A stretch of 64,000 bases of DNA from the human T2T-CHM13v2.0 reference genome, Homo sapiens: the NCBI RefSeq assembly GCF_009914755.1, contig NC_060929.1. The stretch is one strand, 5' to 3'. Shown here one piece after another: positions 7,221-20,065 of the stretch (its first letter is position 1; each line of letters begins with the position of its first letter). Below the pieces are notes generated by a model. That model saw only the letters and a list, made by a program, of their open reading frames with translations. It was not told the origin of the DNA and made no database searches. The translations under genes were made by a program, and so were the position numbers.

Positions 7221-7721
<501 letters not shown>

Positions 7722-8958
7722 TCAGCTTCCTGTAATGTCTCCTTTTTCATTTCTGATTTTATTTGAGTCTTTTCTCTTCTCTTTCTTGGTAATTCTGGCT
7801 AAAATTTTGTCAATTTTATCTTTTCAAAAAAACCCTCAGTTTTATCACATAATTTCTATTGTTTTTTATTTCCCATTTTGTTTATTTCTACTCTAAGCTT
7901 CTTTGTTTTTCCCCTTCTACTAAATTTTGTGGTCATTGAGGTGCAAAATTAGGTTGTTTATTTGATATCTTTCTTTTTTTAATGTAGGCATTTACTGCTA
8001 TAAACTTCTAAGTATTGCTTTTGCTGCATTCCATAGGTTTTGGTATGTTGTATTTCATTTTTGTTTTTCTCAAAATATTTTCCGATTTTGCTTTTGATTT
8101 CTTCTTTGATCCATTAGCTGTTCAAGAATATATTTTTTACTTTCCACATATTAATGAAAAATTTCCAGTTTTCTTTCTTTTGTTGATTTCTAGTTTCATT
8201 CCATTGTGGTCACAAAAATACTTTGTATTATTTCAATCTCATTAAATTTGTTAACTTATTTTGTGACCTAACATGTAATCTATCTTGAAGAATGTTCCAA
8301 GTATGCCTGAGAAGAATGTGTATTCTGCTGCTGTTGGATGATATGTTCTGTATATATCTGTTAGGTTCATTTGATCTATGTTATTTTTCAGATTTGCTGT
8401 CTCATTAATTATCTGTCTGAATATTCTATCCCTTATTGAAAGGAGGGGTATTGAAGTATTCTAATATTATTGTATTGCTGTTTCTCTCTTCAGTTATGTC
8501 AATATTTCCTTTATATATTTAGGTACTCTGATGACAGATGTATATGCTTTGTAATTGTTTTATCTCCCTGGCAATTTAACGCTTTTATGATTATATAATG
8601 TCCATCTTTGTTTCTTGTGGCAGTTTATTACTTAAGTCTATTTTGTCTGATATAAACACAGCCATCCCTGCTCCCTTTGGGTTACCATTTCCATAGAATA
8701 CCTTTTCTCCACCTTTTATCATTCAGTCTGTGTGTCTTTAAATCTAAAATTATTCTCTCATAGACAGTAAAACGTTGAGTTTTCTTGTATCCATTCAGCC
8801 ACTATGCGCCTTTTGATGGGGGAGTTTAATCTATTTACAAGTAATATTGATAGGTAAGGATTTATTATTGCCATTTTATTAATTTTTTTGTCTATTTTGT
8901 AGCTTTTTTGTCTCTCTTTTGTTATCTTCCTGGTGTTTCAATTATTATTTTGTAGTGA

Positions 8959-11415
8959 TTTGCTGCACCTATCAACCCATCACCTAGATATTCAGCCCAG
9001 CATGCCTTAGCCATTTTTCCTGATGCTCTCCCTTTTCCCGGCCCCTCCTGAGAGGCCCCAGTGTGTGTTGTTCCCCTCTCTTTGTCTATGTGTTCACATT
9101 GTTCAACTCCCACTGATAAGCGAGAACATGTGGTGTTTGGTTTTCTGTTCCTGTGTTAGTTTGCTGAGGTTAATGGCTTCCAGCTCCATCCATGTCCATA
9201 AAAAGGGACACAATCACATCCCTTTTTATGGCTGCATAGTATCCCTTGGTATATACGCACCACATGTTCTTTGTCCAGTCTATCATTGATGGGCATTTGG
9301 GTTGACTCCATGTCTTTGCTATTGTGAATAGTGCTCCAGTGAACATAATGTGTACATGTATCTTTATAACAGAATGATTTATATTCCTTTGGGTATACAC
9401 CCAGTAATGGGATTTCTGGGTCAAATGGTATTTCTGGGTCTAGAGCTTTGAGGAATCACCATACTATCTTCCACAATGGTTGAACTAATTTACGTTCCCA
9501 CCAACAGTGAAAAGCGTTCCTATTTCTCTGCAGTCTCACCAGCATCTGATGTTTCTTGACTTTTTAACAATCACCATTCTGACTGGCATGAGATAGTATC
9601 TCATTATGGTTTTAATTTGCATGTCTCTAATGATCAGTGATGTTGAGCTTTTTTTCATATGTTTGGTGGCTGCATGTATGTCTTCTTTTGAAAAGTGTCC
9701 TTTGCCCACTTTTTAATAGGGTTGCTTGTTTATTTATTGTGAATTTGCTTAAGTTCCTTGTAGATTCTGGATATTAGACCTTTGTCAGATGGATATATTG
9801 CAAAAATTTTCTTCCATTTTGTAGGTTGTCTGTTTGCTCTTATGATCATTTTCTTTGCTGTGCAGAAGCTCTTTAGTTTAATTAGATCCCATTTGTCAAT
9901 TTTTTGGTCGCAATTGTTTTTGAGGTTTTCGTTATGAAATCTTTGCCATTACCTATGTCCTGAATGGTATTGCCTAGATTTTCTTCTAGGGTTTTTACAG
10001 TTTTGGGTTTTACATTTAAGTCTTTAATTCATCTTGAATTAATTTTTGTATAAGGTATAAGGAAGGGGTCCAGTTTCAATTTTCTGCATATAACTAGCCA
10101 GTTCTCCCAGCGTCATTTCTTAAATAGGAATCCTTTCCCCATGCTTGTTTTTGTGAGATTTGTCAAAGATCAGATGGTTGTAGATATGTGGTCTCATTTC
10201 TGATTTCTCTATTCTATTCCATTAGTCTAAGTATCTGTTTTTGTACTAGTACCATGCTGTTTTATTACTGTAGCCTTGTAGTATAGTTTGAAGTCGGGTA
10301 GTGTGATGCCTCCAGCCTTGTTCTTTTTGCTTGGGATTGTCTTGGTTATTTAGGCTCATTTTTGGTTCCATATGAAATTTAAAGTATTTTTTTCTAATTC
10401 TGTGAAGAATGTCAATGGTTATTTAATGAGAATAGCATTGAATCTATAAATTGCTTTGGGCAGTATGGCCATTTTCAAGATACTGATTCTTCCTGTCCAT
10501 GAGCATGGAATATTTTTTCACCAGTTCATGTCCTCTCTGATTTCCTTGAGCAGTGGTTTGTAGCTCTCATTGAAGAGGTCCCTCACTTCTCTTGTTAGCT
10601 GTATTCCTAGGTATTTTATTCTCTTTGTAGCAATTGTAAATGGGAGTTCATTTATGATTTGGCTCTCTGCTTGGCTGTTGTTGGTGTATAGGAATGTTTG
10701 TGATTTTTGCACATCGATTTTGTATCCTGAGACTCTGCTGAAGTTGCTCATCAGCTTAAGAAGCTTTTGGGTTGAAACAATGGGGTTTTCTAGATAGAGG
10801 ATCATGTCATCTCCAAACAGAGACAATTTAACTTCTTTCTCTTCCTATTTGAATACCCTTTATTTCTTTCTCTTGCCTGATTTACCTGGCCAAAATTTCT
10901 AATACTATGTTGAATAGGAATGATGAGAGAGGGCATCCTTGTCTTCTGCTGGTTTTCAAGGGGAATGCTTCCAGCTTTTGCCCATTCAGTATGATATTGG
11001 CTGTGCATTAGTCATAAATGGCTCATTATTTTGAGGAATGTTCCTTCAATGTGCCTAATTTCTTGAGAGTTTTTAAGATAAAGCAATGTTGAATTTTATG
11101 GAAGGCCTTTTCTGCATCTATTGAGATAATTTTGTGGATTTTGTCATTGGTCCTGTTTGTGTGATGAAATCCATTAATTGATTTGCATATGTTGAACCAG
11201 TCTTGCATCCTTGGGATGAACCCAACTTGATCATGCTGAATAAGTTTCTTGATGTGCTGCTGGATTTGGTTTCCCAGTATTTTATTGAAGACTTTTGCAT
11301 TGATGTTCATCAGGGATAGTGGCCTGAAGTTTTCTTATGTTGTTGTATCTCCGCTATGTTTGGTATCAGGAACATGCTGGCCTTATAAAATCAGTCAGGG
11401 AGAAGTCCTTCATTT
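8959..11415 (-). mobile_element. L1PA8-10-like LINE-1, 3' part (3' UTR lacking its terminus, ORF2 RT and C-terminus)
   Basis: 3' UTR TTTGCTGCACCTATCAACCCATCACCTAG; RT motif [14 protein letters not shown] (10518-10826); many stops and frameshifts. Confidence 0.92.
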
Positions 11416-11416
11416 C

Positions 11417-14570
<3,154 letters not shown>

Positions 14571-15913
14571 TTATTTATTACTGCCTTAATTTTAGAACAT
14601 GTTATTGGACTATTCAGGGATTGAACTTTTTTCTGGTTTAATCTTGGGAGGGTGTATGCGTCCAGGGATCTATGCATTTCCTCTAGATTTTTCAGTTTAT
14701 TAGCATAAAGGTGTTTATAGTATTCTCTGATGGTTGTTTGCATTTCTGTGGCATCAGTGGTGATATCCCCTTTATCACTTTTTATTGTGTCTATCTTTGA
14801 TTCTTCTCTCTTTTCTTATTAATATAGCTAGCAGTCTATTTTATTAATTTTTTCTAAAAATCCAAATCCTGGATTCGTTGATTTTTTGAAGGTTTTTTTT
14901 TTTTTTATCTCTATCTCCTTCAGTTTTGTGTTGATCTTGGTTATTTCTTGTCTTCTGCTAGCTTTGGGGTTTGTTTGCTCTTGTTTCTCTGGTTCTTTTT
15001 GTTGTGATGTTAGGATGTAAATTTGAGAACTTTTTAGCTTTTTGATGTGGGCATTTAATGATATAAATTTCTCTCTTAACACTGCTTTAGCTGCATCCCT
15101 AAGAGTCTGGTATATTGTCTCTTTTTTCTCATTAGTTTTAAAGAACTTCTTAATTTCTGCCTTAATTTCATTATTTACCCAGGAGTCATTCAGGAGCAGG
15201 TTGTTCAATTTCCATGTAGTTGTGTGGTTTTGAGTAAGTTTCTTAACCTTGAGTTCTAATTTGATTGCATTGTGGTCTGAGAGACTATTATGATTTCAGT
15301 TCTTCTGCCTTTTCTAAGGAATGTTTTACTTCCAGTTATGTGATCAGTTTTAGAGTAAGTGCCATGTGGCACTTAGAAGAATGTATATTCTGTTGTTTGG
15401 GGGTGGAGAGATCTGTAGATATCTTTCAGGTCCACTTGAACCAGAGCTGAGTTCAAGTCTTGAATAGCTGTTAATTTTCTGTCTCAATGAACTGTCTACT
15501 ATTGACAATGGGGTGTTAAAGTCTCCCACTATTAGTGTGTGGGAATCTAAGTCTCTTTGTAGGTCTCTAAGAACTTGTCTTATGGAGTCCTCCTGTATTG
15601 AGTGCATATACCTTTAGGACAGTTAGCTCTTCTTGTTGAATTGAACCTTTTACCATTATGTAATCTCCATCTTTGTCTTTTTTGATCTTTGTTTAAAGTC
15701 TGTTTTGTCAGAAACCAGGATTGCAACTTGGTTCTATTCGCTTGGTAAATTTTCCTCCATCCATTTATTTGCGCCCATGTGTGTCTTTACATGTGAGATG
15801 GGTCTCTTGAATACAGCACACCAGTGGATCTTGACTCTTTATTCAGCTTGCCATTCTGTCTTTTCATTGGTACATGTAGCCCATTTACATTTAAAGTTAA
15901 TGTTTTTATGTTT

Positions 15914-16125
15914 GAATTTAATCCTGTCGTCAGGATTCTAGCTGGTCATTTTGCAGACTTGTTAATGAATTTAAACCTGTCATCATGATTCTAGCTGGTC
16001 ATTTTGCAGACTTGTTAATGAATTTAAACCTGTCATCATGATTCTAGCTGGTCATTTTGCAGACTTGTTAATGAATTTAAACCTGTCATCATGATTCTAG
16101 CTGGTCATTTTGCAGACTTGTTAAT
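15914..16125. repeat. 4 x 53-bp tandem repeat spanning the L1 inter-ORF spacer and ORF2 start
   Basis: Unit GAATTTAAACCTGTCATCATGATTCTAGCTGGTCATTTTGCAGACTTGTTAAT starting at 15914, 15967, 16020 and 16073. Confidence 0.97.
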
Positions 16126-16873
16126 GTAGTTGCTTCATAGTGACATTGGTAGGCGTACTTCAGTGTGTTTTTGTAGTGGCTGGTAACAATTTTTCCTTTC
16201 CATATTTAATGCTTCCTTCAGGAGCTCTTGCAAGATAGGGCTGATGGTGATGAATTCCCTTAGCTTTTGCTTATCTGAAAATGACTTTATTTCTCCTTTG
16301 TTTACGAAGATTAGTTTGACTGGATATGAAATTATAGGTTGGAAATTCTTTTCTTTAAGAAAGTTGACTATTGCCCTCCTGTCCCTTCTGGCTTGTAAGT
16401 TTCCTCTGAGAGGCCTGCTGTTAGTCTGATGGTGGGCTTTCCTTTGTAGGTGATCTGACCTTTCTCTCTGGCTGCCCTTAACATTTTTTTTCTTCCTTTC
16501 AACTTTGGAGAATCTGATGATTATGTGTCTTGGGGCTGATCTTCTCATGGAGTATTTTACTAGGGTTCTCTGGATTTCCTGAATTTGAATCTTGGCCTTT
16601 CTTGTTAGGTTGGGAAAGTTTTCCTGGGTGATACCCTGAAGTATGTTTTCCAACTTGGTTCCATTCTTCCCATCTCTTTCAGGTACCCCAATCAGTCATA
16701 GGTTCAGTCTTTTTACATAATCCCATAGTTCTTGAAGGTTTTGTTCATTCCCTGTCATTCTGTTTTCTCTAATCTTGTTTGCCTGTCTTATTTCAGGAAT
16801 ATAGTCTTCAAGCTCTGAGATTCTTTTCTCTGCTTGGCCTATTCAGCTGTTGATGCTCGTTGTTGCATTGTGA

Positions 16874-17498
<625 letters not shown>

Positions 17499-18719
17499 TG
17501 AACTTATCTACCTTCGATCTTTGAGGCTGCTGACCTTTGCATAGGGTTTTTGTGGGGTCTTTTTGTTGATGTTGTTGTTGCTTTCTGTTTGTTTGTTTTC
17601 CTTTTAACAGTCAGGCCCCTCTTCTCTAGGGCTGCTGTAGTTTACTGGGGGTCTGCTCCAGACCCTATTCACCTGGGTCCCTCCTGCACTTGGAGGTGTC
17701 ACCAGTGGAGGCTACAGAACAGAAAGATGGCTGCCTGCTCTTTCCTCTGGGAGCTTTGTTGCAGAGGGACAACAATTTGATGTTAGTGGGAATGGTCCTG
17801 TATAAGGTGTCTGGTGACCCCTGTTGGGGGGTTCTCACACAGTTAGGAGGTATGGGATCAGGGACTTGCTTAACAAATAATTCTGGCTGCCCCTTAGCTG
17901 AGCAGTGTGCTGTGCCAGAGGGAATCCCCCTCATCTGGACTGCCTGGACTCTTCAGGGCTAGCAGACAAGAGAGGTTAAGTCTGATGAACCATGGAGATC
18001 ATGGCTGCATTTCCTGCCATGGGCTCCATCTCAGGGAGATTAGAGTTCTGTCTGCAAACCCTGGCTGGAGTTATTGAAATTCCCACAGGGAGGCTTCACC
18101 CAGTGAGAAGGAATGGATCTGAGTCCCACCTAAACAAGAAGTCTGGCCATGATCTGCACACAGCCGCTGTGCTGCCCTGTGGAGAATTCCTCTTGGTCCA
18201 AACCACCCAGTCTCTCTGGCACCAGCAGGGGAAAACAACAGACTGGAGCCACAGTGATGGCTGTTCCCCTCCCCTTGGGAGGGAGTATTTGGCAGTCATC
18301 TTAGGCAGTCCCAATCATCTTATGCAGTATCCAGCCTGCAGCTGCTGGCTGCAACCTGAGCGGCCATCAAGCATCTGCACAGCTCTGTGCTTGGGAACCT
18401 AGGCCCTGGTGGCATGGGCTCACGAAGAGATCTCCTGATCTGAAGGTTGCACAGATCTGTGGAGAAAGTGTTGTTTCCCAGGTAGGGTAGCACAATCACT
18501 CACTTTCTCCCTTGGCTGAGGGTGGTAATTCCTCTTGTCCTGTGTGGCTCCTAGGTGAGCTGTCACTCCACTTTGCTTTTCCTCTCTCTTCATGGGTCAC
18601 ACCAACTGCCTAGTCAGTCCCAGTGAGAGAACCTGGCTACCTCAGCTGAAGGTGCAGGATTCACTTGCTGGTTTTCTTCTTTTTGGTGGGAGCCACTGAC
18701 AGATAGCTACTTCCAGTCA

Positions 18720-18728
18720 GCCATCTTG
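18720..18728 (-). promoter_or_regulatory. YY1 site of the L1 5' UTR promoter
   Basis: CAAGATGGC about 13 nt inside the L1 5' end, the canonical L1 YY1 position. Confidence 0.7.
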
Positions 18729-18740
18729 GTGCCTCCTCCC

Positions 18741-18916
18741 AGCATCTTTATTCATGAGGCACACAACATTTTGTGGAGTTAACTAGAAGCTTCCAATTTT
18801 TCTGGGTGCATCCAGCATAATCCCTATCACAAGAATTCATAGGCCACAGTCTTTATAAAATGGGGTGCTTCATTCCTCTCATACTTGCATGTTAATGATA
18901 TTGCAGCCTCAGCATC
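18741..18916 (-). other. Putative 5'-transduced unique sequence (source-locus flank, second exon)
   Basis: Not L1-like; abuts the L1 5' end; ends ATGAATAAAGATGCT on the minus strand. Confidence 0.6.
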
Positions 18917-19016
18917 AGTTCAGCATGACTGGGGAGGCCTCAGAAAATTTGCTATCATGGCAGAAGGTGAAGCGGAAGCAAATCACCTTCTTCAGAAGGC
19001 AGCAGGTAGGAGAAGT
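18917..19016 (-). mobile_element. THE1 (THE1C/D-like) LTR fragment from about the TSS to the splice donor
   Basis: Minus strand ACTTCTCCTACCTGCTGCCTTCTGAAGAAGG...TGAGGCCTCCCCAGTCATGCTGAACT; no U3 and no U5. Confidence 0.85.
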
Positions 19017-20065
19017 CCACTATTGAAGAAAATAAGATTCTTCCCTTTTCTCTTTCTGCTCCTTCTGAGACTACCACCATGTGTATATCAGTTCACATCA
19101 TGGTTTCCCATAAGTCCCTAGAGCTTTCTTCACTTTTTAAAATTATATTTTCTGTTTGTTCCTCAGACTAGATAACTTTAAATGGCTTGTTTTAAAGTTT
19201 GCTTATACTTTTGCTTGATCTAGTCAACCGTTGAACCTTTTTAGGAAATTTTTTATCACAGTTATTGGACTCTTCATTTCCAATTTTTTGTTTGATTTTT
19301 AAAACAATATATATTTTCTATCTTTTTGTTGAAATACTCCTTTTTTATGTATTGTTTCCTTAAACTTGTTGAGCATTTTTATGATGGTTATTTTGAACTC
19401 TTTGTTAGGTAATTCATATACCTCTGTTTCTTTAGCATGGCTTTCTGAAGATTTACTTATATTTGTTTGCTCCATATTTTCCTGTTTCTTTGTGCTTGAC
19501 ATTTTGTGTTGGTGTCTAAACATTTGAAAAAACAGCCACTTCTTCCAATGTTTATAGATTGGCTTCCTACAGGAGACCATCTCCACCAGTCAACCCAGCT
19601 AAAGATTTTAGGGATCTCTCAAACTTTTTTTGTGGATGTGACTTCTCTAGATGTGTGCATGTAAATTTCTATTTAAAGGGGTTCTCCAGCTTCTGTTTCA
19701 GGAGTTTATTATATCTTGCTTCCTCTGATGTCTGTTTACTGTACTGTATGTCCTCTGGAGCAGCAACACACCATCCAACTATTTTTATTTTTTGTTCACA
19801 GTATGCTGTGTTCCATCAGTGCTCCAAGACAGGAGAGACAGAAATCAGTCCTCAGGCAGCTCCCAAAAATGTCTGAATGTTAGATCTATGTTTAGTCTTC
19901 TCTTTCTCTCTCTAGGCAGAAGCTGTATGCTATGGATTTTTCTGATCATTTCATGCTGAGCTCAGGGGAGGGACTCTAAAGTGAGTGCATACAAGTCCAA
20001 ACTGTTACCATTGTTGTCAACTGCCCCCAGGCATGCTGAGTGTGCTGAGTCCCTACAGTGTTCCT
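19017..20065 (-). mobile_element. Old L1MA resumes (5' ORF1 and 5' UTR remnant)
   Basis: ORF1 N-terminal peptide EVYELPNKEFKITIIKMLNK (19299-19586); L1M motif TCCCATAAGTCCCTAGAGCTTTCTTCACT. Confidence 0.75.

What the first reader, a model, noticed from the sequence alone, without database searches (positions are those of the whole stretch)
18741..19016. Fossil of an LTR-promoted, spliced 5' transduction on a near-full-length L1PA
Seen: read on the minus strand (L1 sense), the insertion is [100-nt THE1 LTR piece, 19016-18917] + [176 nt unique, 18916-18741] + [intact L1 5' end GGGAGGAGGCACCAAGATGG]. All of it sits inside an older L1MA, so it did not originate here as flank. The THE1 piece begins at ACTTCTCC, with no TATA or U3 upstream. 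It stops at ...CATGCTGAACT and continues GATGCTG rather than GTGAGT. Established: THE1/MaLR LTRs are active promoters with a conserved splice donor AACT|GTGAGT in R/U5, and L1 5' transductions arise when an upstream promoter reads through an L1. Inference: at the source locus a THE1 LTR initiated transcription and spliced to an acceptor 176 nt upstream of an L1, and the chimeric mRNA was retrotransposed whole. The unique piece ends in AATAAAGATGCT, as expected for the source L1's A-rich TSD. THE1C/D is older than L1PA8-10, so the order of events is consistent. This would be an ancient record of an ERV LTR driving L1 mobilisation, with a tag identifying the source element.
Basis: partly seen in the sequence, partly recalled or inferred. 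Interest (0 to 1): 0.82.

Follow-up and report, generated by a model that had tools for sequence, protein, structure and literature searches.

The report
Spliced LTR leader on fossil L1
An ancient, dead human L1 retrotransposon carries a 276-base leader made of the first exon of a retroviral LTR promoter spliced to a unique sequence, which is a fossil of a rare but already described way for L1 to pick up foreign 5' exons.

Summary
On the minus strand, a 100-nt MaLR (THE1/MST-type) LTR fragment (19016-18917) abuts 176 nt of single-copy DNA (18916-18741). That DNA abuts the canonical first base of an old full-length L1 (18740).

In 29 genomic LTR copies (30 alignments), the fragment's first base lies 27-32 nt after the TATA box in 27. 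Its last base is followed by GT in 24 and by GTRAGT in 20. This is the published MaLR donor AAST|gtaag. The fragment is therefore an LTR first exon running from start site to donor, so a spliced LTR-initiated RNA was reverse-transcribed. The 176 nt match nothing else in the assembly, the L1 family, the host L1M or the LTR.

Corrections:
- A younger twin-primed L1 (11425-14448) splits the element.
- The L1's last ~75 nt, poly(A) and 3' TSD are missing at a 9-nt overlap junction (8956-8964), together with ~0.8-1.25 kb of host L1M.
- TSDs therefore cannot prove co-insertion.
- No source locus or sibling was found.

Best reading (0.55): one chimeric LTR-exon/L1 RNA was retrotransposed. The rivals are a template switch or endonuclease-independent capture, or an L1 landing in an older retrocopy. 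The class was catalogued in 2026 (17 cases) and this locus is not listed, so it is a new member of a known kind.

The parts
18917..19016 (-). MaLR (THE1/MST-type) LTR first exon: predicted transcription start to splice donor. No U3/TATA upstream, no GT-intron downstream.
   Evidence: 82-90% identity to genomic LTR copies. TATA-like motif 27-32 nt upstream of the start in 27 of 30 alignments. GT after the end in 24 of 30, GTRAGT in 20 of 30.
18741..18916 (-). 176 nt of single-copy DNA (putative second exon or upstream flank of the source L1). It ends in AATAAAGATGCT.
   Evidence: only self hits in the 3.1-Gb assembly; no significant match to 29 old-L1M loci, 29 L1 sibling loci, 29 LTR loci or the rest of the window; best score against LTR copies is no better than shuffles (7 of 60 reach it); no Rfam family.
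14449..18740 (-). Old primate L1, 5' part: canonical 5' terminus, 5'UTR, ORF1, and the N-terminal ORF2 (endonuclease). Decayed.
   Evidence: same terminus as full-length siblings. Transposase_22 and Tnp_22_dsRBD at 16138-16695, weak Exo_endo_phos at 15353-15613; 97 stops in the frame translated.
11425..14448 (.). Younger L1 insertion that splits the old L1. It is not part of the chimera. Direct 3' segment 11425 to ~12807 (minus), inverted segment ~12808-14448 (plus). TSD copies at 14464-14449 and 11421-11401.
   Evidence: with the host L1 as ruler, the inverted piece ends 11 nt before the direct piece begins (twin-priming pattern).
8957..11400 (-). Old primate L1, 3' part: reverse transcriptase, ORF2 C-terminus, and 3'UTR cut about 75 nt before its end. 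No poly(A).
   Evidence: RVT_1 at 11029-11334 and 10521-10844; 3'UTR homology stops at 8956, with 75 nt of the ruler L1 left over; 3'UTR best hits 85-89%.
8956..8964 (-). Junction of the truncated L1 3'UTR with old L1M. A 9-nt overlap (AGCAAATCA) can be read as either.
19017..19400 (-). Old L1M host element, upstream flank (ORF1 region). Homology runs up to ...AATAGTGG at 19017.
   Evidence: 67-73% identity to relatives, whose sequence continues CTGAAAACTTCCC where the insertion begins.
8400..8964 (-). Old L1M host element, downstream flank. It resumes about 830-1250 nt further along the element than the upstream flank ends.

Best explanation
The finding is a fossil of one chimeric RNA that L1 copied back into the genome.

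**Proposed sequence of events**
1. At a source locus now lost, a MaLR (THE1/MST-type) LTR promoter fired at its TATA-directed start site.
2. The transcript was spliced from the conserved LTR donor (AACT|GTGAGT) to a downstream exon.
3. That exon lay just upstream of, or was otherwise joined to, a full-length competent L1.
4. The L1 proteins made from this RNA reverse-transcribed it in cis up to its cap. The insertion therefore starts at the LTR start site and carries the exon-exon junction.
5. The copy landed in ORF1 of an older L1M.

**Later events at this locus**
- A deletion with a 9-nt overlap removed the last ~75 nt of the L1, its poly(A), the 3' TSD and ~0.8-1.25 kb of L1M.
- A younger twin-primed L1 inserted into ORF2.

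**Shown versus inferred**
- Shown: the LTR piece has exon boundaries, the 176 nt is single-copy, and the L1 5' end is complete.
- Inferred: the three parts were one RNA, the promoter was the LTR, and the deletion came later.

The element has no present function. It has no LTR promoter (U3), and the L1 reading frames are full of stops.
For: - **Start and donor of the LTR piece.** The fragment's first base is 27-32 nt after the TATA-like motif in 27 of 30 alignments of 29 LTR copies. The fragment's end is followed by GT in 24 of 30 and by GTRAGT in 20 of 30.
- **Published donor.** Franke 2017, PMC5538554 (passages), describes a conserved MaLR donor AASTgtaag at the LTR 3' end. [quoted passage not shown]
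- **A living example.** In Babaian & Mager 2016 (passages), a THE1B LTR initiates and splices from its donor to a downstream exon lying in a LINE.
- **TATA spacing in general.** TE-derived start sites have TATA boxes at -25 to -30, and THE1 start sites are focused.
- **No U3 left at the site.** L1M homology runs to the base before the LTR piece.
- **The L1 5' end.** It starts at the family's canonical first base, and 29 of 29 siblings have unrelated flanks.
- **The 176 nt is not repeat or flank sequence.**
- **The published class.** Law & Burns 2026 report 17 L1s with first exons of mRNAs or lncRNAs at the 5' end. 15 are sense-oriented, most are near full-length, and six end at splice donors. 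They argue that a splice junction disfavours template switching.
- **Compatible ages.**
- **The A-rich AATAAAGATGCT** directly before the L1 fits a 12-nt TSD of the source element. This is inference and weak.
Against: - **No hallmark of a single insertion event can be shown.** There is no poly(A) and no 3' TSD. The L1 3' end is truncated and ~0.8-1.25 kb of target is missing.
- **The same four features define endonuclease-independent insertions.** In these, 15 of 21 carried extra non-L1 DNA and 2 of 21 carried pieces of other cellular RNAs (Sen 2007, PMC1920257).
- **No source, acceptor site or sibling was found.** Searches gave only self hits. One search found no L1 5' end within 1.5 kb of the 29 fetched LTR copies, and no LTR piece within 1.5 kb of the 29 L1 siblings.
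- **The start site is predicted from TATA spacing only.** No CAGE data for this subfamily were seen.
- **Possible microhomology at the 5' junction.** Relatives of the old L1M continue with ...AAACTTCCCAAACCTG at the junction. This resembles the LTR exon's ACTTCTCCTACCTG (L076). A microhomology-guided 5' junction inside a longer cDNA is not excluded.
- **AATAAAGATGCT fits this L1's own TSD equally well** if the L1 landed in an older retrocopy.
Confidence: 0.55

Rival explanations
1. Two RNAs, one insertion. The L1 reverse transcriptase copied a full-length L1 RNA to its 5' end. It then switched to, or captured, a separate spliced LTR-initiated RNA and copied that to its cap. This may have happened during an endonuclease-independent, break-repair type insertion primed by microhomology inside the L1 3'UTR.
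For: - The locus meets the descriptive criteria of non-classical L1 insertions: 3' truncation (~75 nt), no poly(A), no TSD, a target deletion of ~0.8-1.25 kb, and a 9-nt overlap at the 3' junction.
- Sen 2007 reports target deletions in 18 of 21 such loci and extra non-L1 DNA of 4-312 bp in 15 of 21. Two loci carried fragments of other cellular RNAs, including an mRNA fragment at the 5' end.
- Template switching is the accepted route for U6/L1 chimeras.
Against: - The acceptor RNA would have been entered 6 nt after an AATAAA with no A-run between the parts. This is not what a jump onto a polyadenylated 3' end gives.
- 18 of 21 non-classical insertions were heavily 5' truncated. This L1 is complete at its 5' end.
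- A plain later deletion explains the missing 3' end equally well and is far commoner (my estimate).
- The 5' part is not a known small RNA.
Confidence: 0.2
2. Two insertions. First, a processed retrocopy of a spliced, LTR-initiated non-coding RNA inserted into the old L1M. Later, the L1 landed inside that retrocopy, 276 nt from its 5' end and in the same orientation, using AATAAAGATGCT as its own target site. The later deletion removed the L1 3' end, its TSD copy, the rest of the retrocopy and part of L1M.
For: - The A-rich 12-mer directly upstream of the L1 5' end is what this L1's own 5' TSD would look like.
- Everything downstream of the L1 that could contradict this has been deleted.
- The LTR exon structure is explained equally well.
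Against: - It needs two independent rare events in the same 300 nt and on the same strand. My rough estimate is about ten-fold less likely a priori than a 5' chimera of the catalogued class (inference, no tool).
- The parent gene of the retrocopy would also have to be missing from the genome.
Confidence: 0.1
3. No RNA intermediate for the LTR piece. A solo LTR that inserted into L1M was trimmed on both sides by ordinary deletions or rearrangements. The match of its ends to start site and donor is a coincidence.
For: The locus has demonstrably suffered at least one deletion and one later insertion.
Against: - Both ends coincide with functional landmarks: the donor to the base and the start within the TATA window. 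My arithmetic puts this at about 3e-5 for a random slice of a ~385-nt LTR.
- L1M homology runs right up to the fragment with no LTR U3 remnant.
Confidence: 0.03

Closest known systems
5' transduction / mRNA- and lncRNA-first-exon chimeras on near-full-length L1 (Law & Burns 2026, Cell Genomics, PMC13174262; e.g. MAP3K13 exons 1-2 + L1PA5, FHIT exons 1-3 + L1PA4)
   Same: - Sense-oriented non-L1 leader of 100-300 nt that begins at a transcript start.
- It contains exon-exon junctions and abuts the first bases of a near-full-length L1.
- As here, the source L1 is usually not found: 15 of 17 gene loci hold no intronic L1.
   Different: - The catalogued cases have TSDs, an endonuclease motif and poly(A), and their leaders map to annotated genes. 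Here the 3' end is deleted and the second exon maps nowhere.
- The first exon here is an LTR promoter's own exon.
- The terms LTR, THE1 and MST do not occur in their Table S5 file.
- No row for chr5, or for chr5:86-88 Mb, was found there or in the other tables. I read only part 1 of 3 of Table S5 itself.
LTR-initiated chimeric transcripts from MaLR LTRs (Franke 2017, PMC5538554; THE1B-CSF1R in Babaian & Mager 2016, PMC5134097)
   Same: A TATA-directed start in the LTR, use of the conserved donor near the LTR 3' end, and splicing to a downstream non-LTR exon.
   Different: Those are RNAs seen in living cells. This is a DNA copy of such an RNA, attached to an L1.
Non-classical (endonuclease-independent) L1 insertions (Sen 2007, PMC1920257)
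   Same: 3' truncated L1, no poly(A), no TSD, target deletion, junction microhomology and extra non-L1 DNA at the 5' end.
   Different: - Those were verified against the pre-insertion state in other primates, which I could not do.
- They are mostly short and 5' truncated, whereas this L1 has a complete 5' end.
U6/L1 and other small-RNA/L1 chimeras formed by template switching or ligation
   Same: A bipartite insertion with a sense-oriented foreign RNA copy at the L1 5' side.
   Different: - The 5' partner here is not a small structured RNA.
- It carries a splice junction.
- The L1 is full-length, whereas U6 chimeras are usually 5' truncated.
SVA subfamily carrying MAST2 exon 1 as a spliced 5' transduction
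   Same: An upstream promoter's first exon was spliced onto a retroelement and then co-mobilised.
   Different: That leader founded a successful lineage. This one left no second copy.

Membership tests
First-exon/L1 5' chimera (Law & Burns 2026 class) | Sense-oriented non-L1 sequence directly abutting the 5' end of a near-full-length L1 | tested here: met
First-exon/L1 5' chimera (Law & Burns 2026 class) | The non-L1 part begins at a transcript start | tested here: met
   The start is predicted only. A TATA-like motif lies 27-32 nt upstream in 27 of 30 alignments of LTR copies. No CAGE data were seen.
First-exon/L1 5' chimera (Law & Burns 2026 class) | Exon boundary at a splice donor inside or at the end of the non-L1 part | tested here: met
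   The LTR piece ends where GT follows in 24 of 30 copies and GTRAGT in 20 of 30. This matches the published AASTgtaag.
First-exon/L1 5' chimera (Law & Burns 2026 class) | TSD flanking the whole chimera, plus endonuclease motif and poly(A) | tested here: not met
   The L1 3' end, poly(A) and 3' flank are absent in this assembly. Whether they ever existed is open.
First-exon/L1 5' chimera (Law & Burns 2026 class) | Leader and L1 arrive at the same node in multi-species alignments | not testable with these tools
   No other primate genome or alignment was available.
First-exon/L1 5' chimera (Law & Burns 2026 class) | Leader maps to a source transcript elsewhere in the genome | tested here: not met
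   The 176 nt gives self hits only. The LTR exon is repetitive and cannot be assigned to one copy.
MaLR (THE1/MST-type) LTR | Sequence homology to genomic LTR copies over the whole piece | tested here: met
   82-90% identity over 1-100. 784 candidates, 40 scored. The subfamily was not assigned.
MaLR (THE1/MST-type) LTR | Complete LTR (U3-R-U5) present at this site | tested here: not met
   Only about 100 of ~370-390 nt are present. Copies extend 192 nt further upstream and 80 nt further downstream. The flanks here are L1M and unique DNA.
Endonuclease-independent (non-classical) L1 insertion | 3' truncated L1 without poly(A) and without TSD | tested here: met
   (75 nt plus the tail missing). 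No TSD could be found.
Endonuclease-independent (non-classical) L1 insertion | Boundaries identical to a gap or deletion in the verified pre-insertion state of an outgroup | not testable with these tools
   No outgroup genome. A later deletion gives the same picture.
Small-RNA/L1 chimera (U6, 5S, etc.) | The 5' partner is a known small RNA | tested here: not met
   Rfam gave two chance-level miRNA matches (E 0.58 and 0.99, far below gathering scores) and nothing else.

The most novel reading that the evidence does not exclude
A germline-active endogenous-retrovirus LTR promoter (MaLR LTRs are oocyte and early-embryo promoters in mammals) directly drove the mobilisation of a competent L1 in an ancestral primate. 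It would have bypassed the L1's own, repressor-targeted 5'UTR. This locus would be a physical record of one transposon family lending its promoter to another, and of a route by which L1 could sample new 5' leaders.
Probability: 0.5. Interest if true: 0.55.

Novelty: new member of a known kind. Interest (0 to 1): 0.42.

Why it matters
L1 lineages have replaced their 5'UTRs repeatedly during primate evolution, and how new leaders and promoters are acquired is still argued. Law & Burns 2026 showed that first exons of genes can be carried onto full-length L1s. This locus adds a case in which the exon is that of a retroviral LTR promoter, so one repeat family may have powered another.

It is a single, dead, childless copy with a damaged 3' end. 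It illustrates the route rather than showing that the route mattered.

It is also a useful test case for pipelines. Its leader cannot be mapped to a gene, and its TSD is lost. Both properties would make catalogue methods miss it.

Tried and rejected
1. **TSD from the 10-mer GGACTTCTCC.** I first took this 10-mer, present at the 5' junction and just after an L1 tail near 11400, for the TSD of the whole unit. Searches showed that the tail belongs to a younger L1. The 10-mer is host-L1 ORF2 sequence within that younger element's TSD. Idea rejected.
2. **Search for the 16-mer upstream of the junction elsewhere in the window.** Only itself, and fewer hits than chance.
3. **Source locus.** The 176 nt, whole and as two halves, gave self hits only. 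None of the 29 fetched LTR loci has the L1 5' end within 1.5 kb. None of the 29 L1 sibling loci has the LTR piece. The sensitivity of the first-look stage for a single ~80%-identical target is unknown, so absence is not proven.
4. **Whether the 176 nt is a diverged LTR, L1M or L1 piece.** No. A 14-of-16 match to an LTR U3 motif is at shuffle level.
5. **Known RNA families.** None.
6. **Age conflict.** L1 5'UTR siblings are only 78-82% identical, against 84-90% for the LTR. The low-CpG L1 3'UTR and ORF1 give 85-89% and 84-87%, so there is no conflict.
7. **Earlier findings database.** It was closed.
8. **Pfam on raw frame translations.** Stop-free ORFs were used instead.
9. **Literature.** Full-text searches turned up no paper describing an LTR-initiated spliced leader on an L1. 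Most hits were seen as listings and abstracts only. PMC6500023 (passages) concerns an engineered L1/MaLR construct, not a natural LTR-driven L1.

Full report
**What is there.**
Read on the minus strand, the window shows four adjoining pieces:
- an old L1M sequence ending ...AATAGTGG at 19017;
- 100 nt beginning ACTTCTCC and ending ...CATGCTGAACT (19016-18917);
- 176 nt beginning GATGCTGAGG and ending AATAAAGATGCT (18916-18741);
- GGGAGGAGGCACCAAGATGG, the start of an L1 (18740 downward).

**The 100 nt is an LTR first exon.**
- A search of the window's own assembly (T2T-CHM13, 3.1 Gb) found 784 first-look candidates. 40 were scored, at 82-90% identity besides the self hit, and nearly all covered bases 1-100.
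- I compared 29 fetched copies pairwise with the fragment, giving 30 alignments.
- A TATA-like motif (mostly TATAAG/TATAAA within TTTTATAAGG) starts 27-32 nt upstream of the fragment's first base in 27 of 30 alignments (29 nt in 14). The three exceptions are one at 22 nt, one truncated copy and one copy without a motif.
- The first base is an A preceded by C in most copies, which is initiator-like.
- The fragment's last base is followed by GT in 24 of 30: GTGAGT in 17, GTAAGT in 3, other GT in 4. Six copies have a mutated or deleted site.
- Homology among copies continues a median 192 nt upstream and 80 nt downstream of the fragment. The fragment is therefore an internal slice of a roughly 370-390-nt LTR, cut at exactly these two landmarks.

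The literature fits this reading:
- Franke et al. 2017 (PMC5538554, passages) describe a conserved MaLR donor AASTgtaag near the LTR 3' end. They also describe LTRs that provide promoters and first exons.
- Babaian & Mager 2016 (PMC5134097, passages) describe a THE1B LTR that initiates and splices from its own donor to an exon inside a LINE.
- A 2026 RAMPAGE atlas (PMC12963367, passages) reports TATA boxes at -25 to -30 of TE-derived start sites, and focused start sites in THE1.

I saw no start-site data for this particular subfamily, so the start is predicted, not measured. I could not assign THE1 versus MST, because no Dfam was available.

**The 176 nt is unique.**
- The whole piece and each half hit only themselves in the assembly.
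- The same tool found 67-70%-identical L1M copies and 82%-identical LTR copies. Its sensitivity for one single ~80% target is nevertheless unknown.
- Local BLAST found nothing significant in 29 old-L1M loci, 29 L1 sibling loci, 29 LTR loci with their flanks, or the rest of the window (best E 0.03).
- The best Smith-Waterman score against LTR copies (27) is reached by 7 of 60 shuffles.
- Rfam gives nothing.

**The L1.**
- The first 300 nt have 860 first-look candidates. 40 were scored, at 78-82% identity apart from the self hit.
- Among the 29 siblings examined, several (L050/L058, L043, L053) begin with the same GGGAGGAGG-type terminus. The rest start up to about 60 nt in, and all 29 have unrelated upstream DNA. 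The L1 is therefore complete at its 5' end.
- Pfam on stop-free ORFs places ORF1 (Transposase_22 and Tnp_22_dsRBD) at 16138-16695 and a weak endonuclease match at 15353-15613. It places reverse transcriptase at 11029-11334 and 10521-10844, all on the minus strand.
- The element is decayed.
- Its low-CpG parts match siblings at 85-89% (3'UTR) and 84-87% (ORF1). This is the same range as the LTR piece, so the LTR family is not visibly younger than the L1 and the proposed order of events is possible.

**Corrections to the anatomy.**
- *A younger L1 splits the element.* It lies at 11425-14448 and has a direct 3' segment (to ~12807, minus strand) and an inverted segment (~12808-14448). With the host L1 as ruler, the inverted segment ends 11 nt before the direct one begins. 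This is the twin-priming pattern.
- *That younger element has its own TSD.* The copies lie at 14464-14449 and 11421-11401 and differ by a 5-nt indel. This disposed of my first idea that GGACTTCTCC, seen at the 5' junction and near 11400, was the TSD of the chimera.
- *The host L1 lacks its 3' end.* With the younger L1's 3' end as ruler, homology stops at 8956 with 75 nt of 3'UTR and the tail missing. Old-L1M homology starts at 8964, so 9 nt (AGCAAATCA) can be read either way.
- *The L1M flanks are not adjacent.* In the relatives where both flanks could be aligned near the junction, the downstream flank starts about 830-1250 nt after the upstream flank ends.

**What follows for mechanism.**
That a spliced, LTR-initiated RNA was reverse-transcribed up to its cap seems secure. 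I put a DNA-level coincidence at about 3%. By my arithmetic, a random slice of the LTR would meet both landmarks with a chance near 3e-5. L1M homology also runs right up to the fragment with no U3 remnant.

Whether that RNA was one molecule with the L1 is not provable here, because the 3' junction is lost. Three readings remain.

- **(a) One chimeric RNA (0.55).**
  - This is the class described by Law & Burns 2026 (PMC13174262; abstract, passages, sections 13 and 20, part 1 of 3 of Table S5).
  - They report 17 L1s in hg38 that carry first exons of mRNAs or lncRNAs. 15 are sense-oriented and most are near full-length.
  - Six leaders end at donors, some of them joined to the first ~10 nt of L1. 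Source L1s are usually not found.
  - They argue that a splice junction disfavours template switching.
  - Within (a), the 176 nt may be the source L1's upstream flank entered through an acceptor, with AATAAAGATGCT as the source's TSD. Alternatively it may be a complete exon joined to the L1 as in their FHIT and MAP3K13 cases. I cannot tell which.
- **(b) A template switch or RNA capture (0.2).**
  - This may have occurred in an endonuclease-independent insertion.
  - The locus shows 3' truncation, no poly(A), no TSD, a target deletion and junction microhomology.
  - Sen et al. 2007 (PMC1920257; passages and section 11) found extra non-L1 DNA at 15 of 21 such loci and other cellular RNA fragments at 2 of them.
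  - Against this reading, most of those insertions are short and 5' truncated. A later deletion also explains the same features.
- **(c) Sequential insertion (0.1).**
  - The L1 landed in an older retrocopy of the LTR-driven RNA.
  - The deletion has erased everything that could test this.

One further caveat concerns the 5' junction. Old-L1M relatives continue there with a sequence resembling the first bases of the LTR exon (L076). A microhomology-guided junction inside a longer cDNA cannot be ruled out. It would, however, require an extra 6-nt loss in the L1M.

**Novelty.**
- The kind is in print.
- This locus is not in the parts I could check. There is no chr5 row in the Table S5 file and no chr5:86-88 Mb row in any of the six supplementary files. 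The terms LTR, THE1 and MST do not occur in Table S5.
- Three full-text searches found no description of an LTR-initiated spliced leader on an L1.
- It is therefore a new member of a known kind, with the particular interest that the donated exon is a retroviral LTR's own.
- It left no second copy. It has no promoter of its own and no open reading frames, so it is a record of an event, not a working element.
- It lies in an intron of LINC02144 on the same strand, according to the hub's annotation. I saw nothing that links it to that gene's exons.

Noticed in passing
window 11425-14448: A younger L1 with a 5' inversion sits inside ORF2 of the old L1. The direct 3' segment runs 11425 to ~12807 (minus strand) and the inverted segment ~12808-14448 (plus strand). 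There is an 11-nt gap between the two in L1 coordinates. TSD copies lie at 14464-14449 and 11421-11401 and differ by a 5-nt indel. This is a textbook twin-priming structure.
   Followed up: yes
window 8956-8964 and flanks 8400-9140: The old L1's 3'UTR is joined to the host L1M through a 9-nt stretch (AGCAAATCA) that both sequences share. About 75 nt of L1 3' end plus the tail, and about 0.8-1.25 kb of L1M, are absent. This is either a microhomology-mediated deletion or the 3' junction of an endonuclease-independent insertion.
   Followed up: partly
window 19009-19018, 14449-14458, 11401-11410: The 10-mer GGACTTCTCC occurs at the 5' junction of the chimera and twice in the TSD of the younger L1 (it is host-L1 ORF2 sequence). 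It mimics a TSD of the whole unit and is a trap for automated TSD callers.
   Followed up: yes
window 19005-19030 versus locus L076:2620-2900 region: Relatives of the host L1M continue past the insertion point with CTGAAAACTTCCCAAACCTG. Its second half resembles the first 14 nt of the LTR exon. This may be chance or microhomology used at the 5' junction.
   Followed up: partly
window ~7290-7760 (minus strand): Two Alu-like sequences in tandem, each followed by an A-rich tail, lie inside the host L1M downstream of the finding. They were identified by eye only.
   Followed up: no
supplementary Table S5 of PMC13174262, SATB1-AS1 row: The first mapped exon of one catalogued L1 chimera looked to me like antisense L1 5'UTR sequence (from recollection, not tested). 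If so, repeat-derived first exons are already hidden in that catalogue without being labelled.
   Followed up: no
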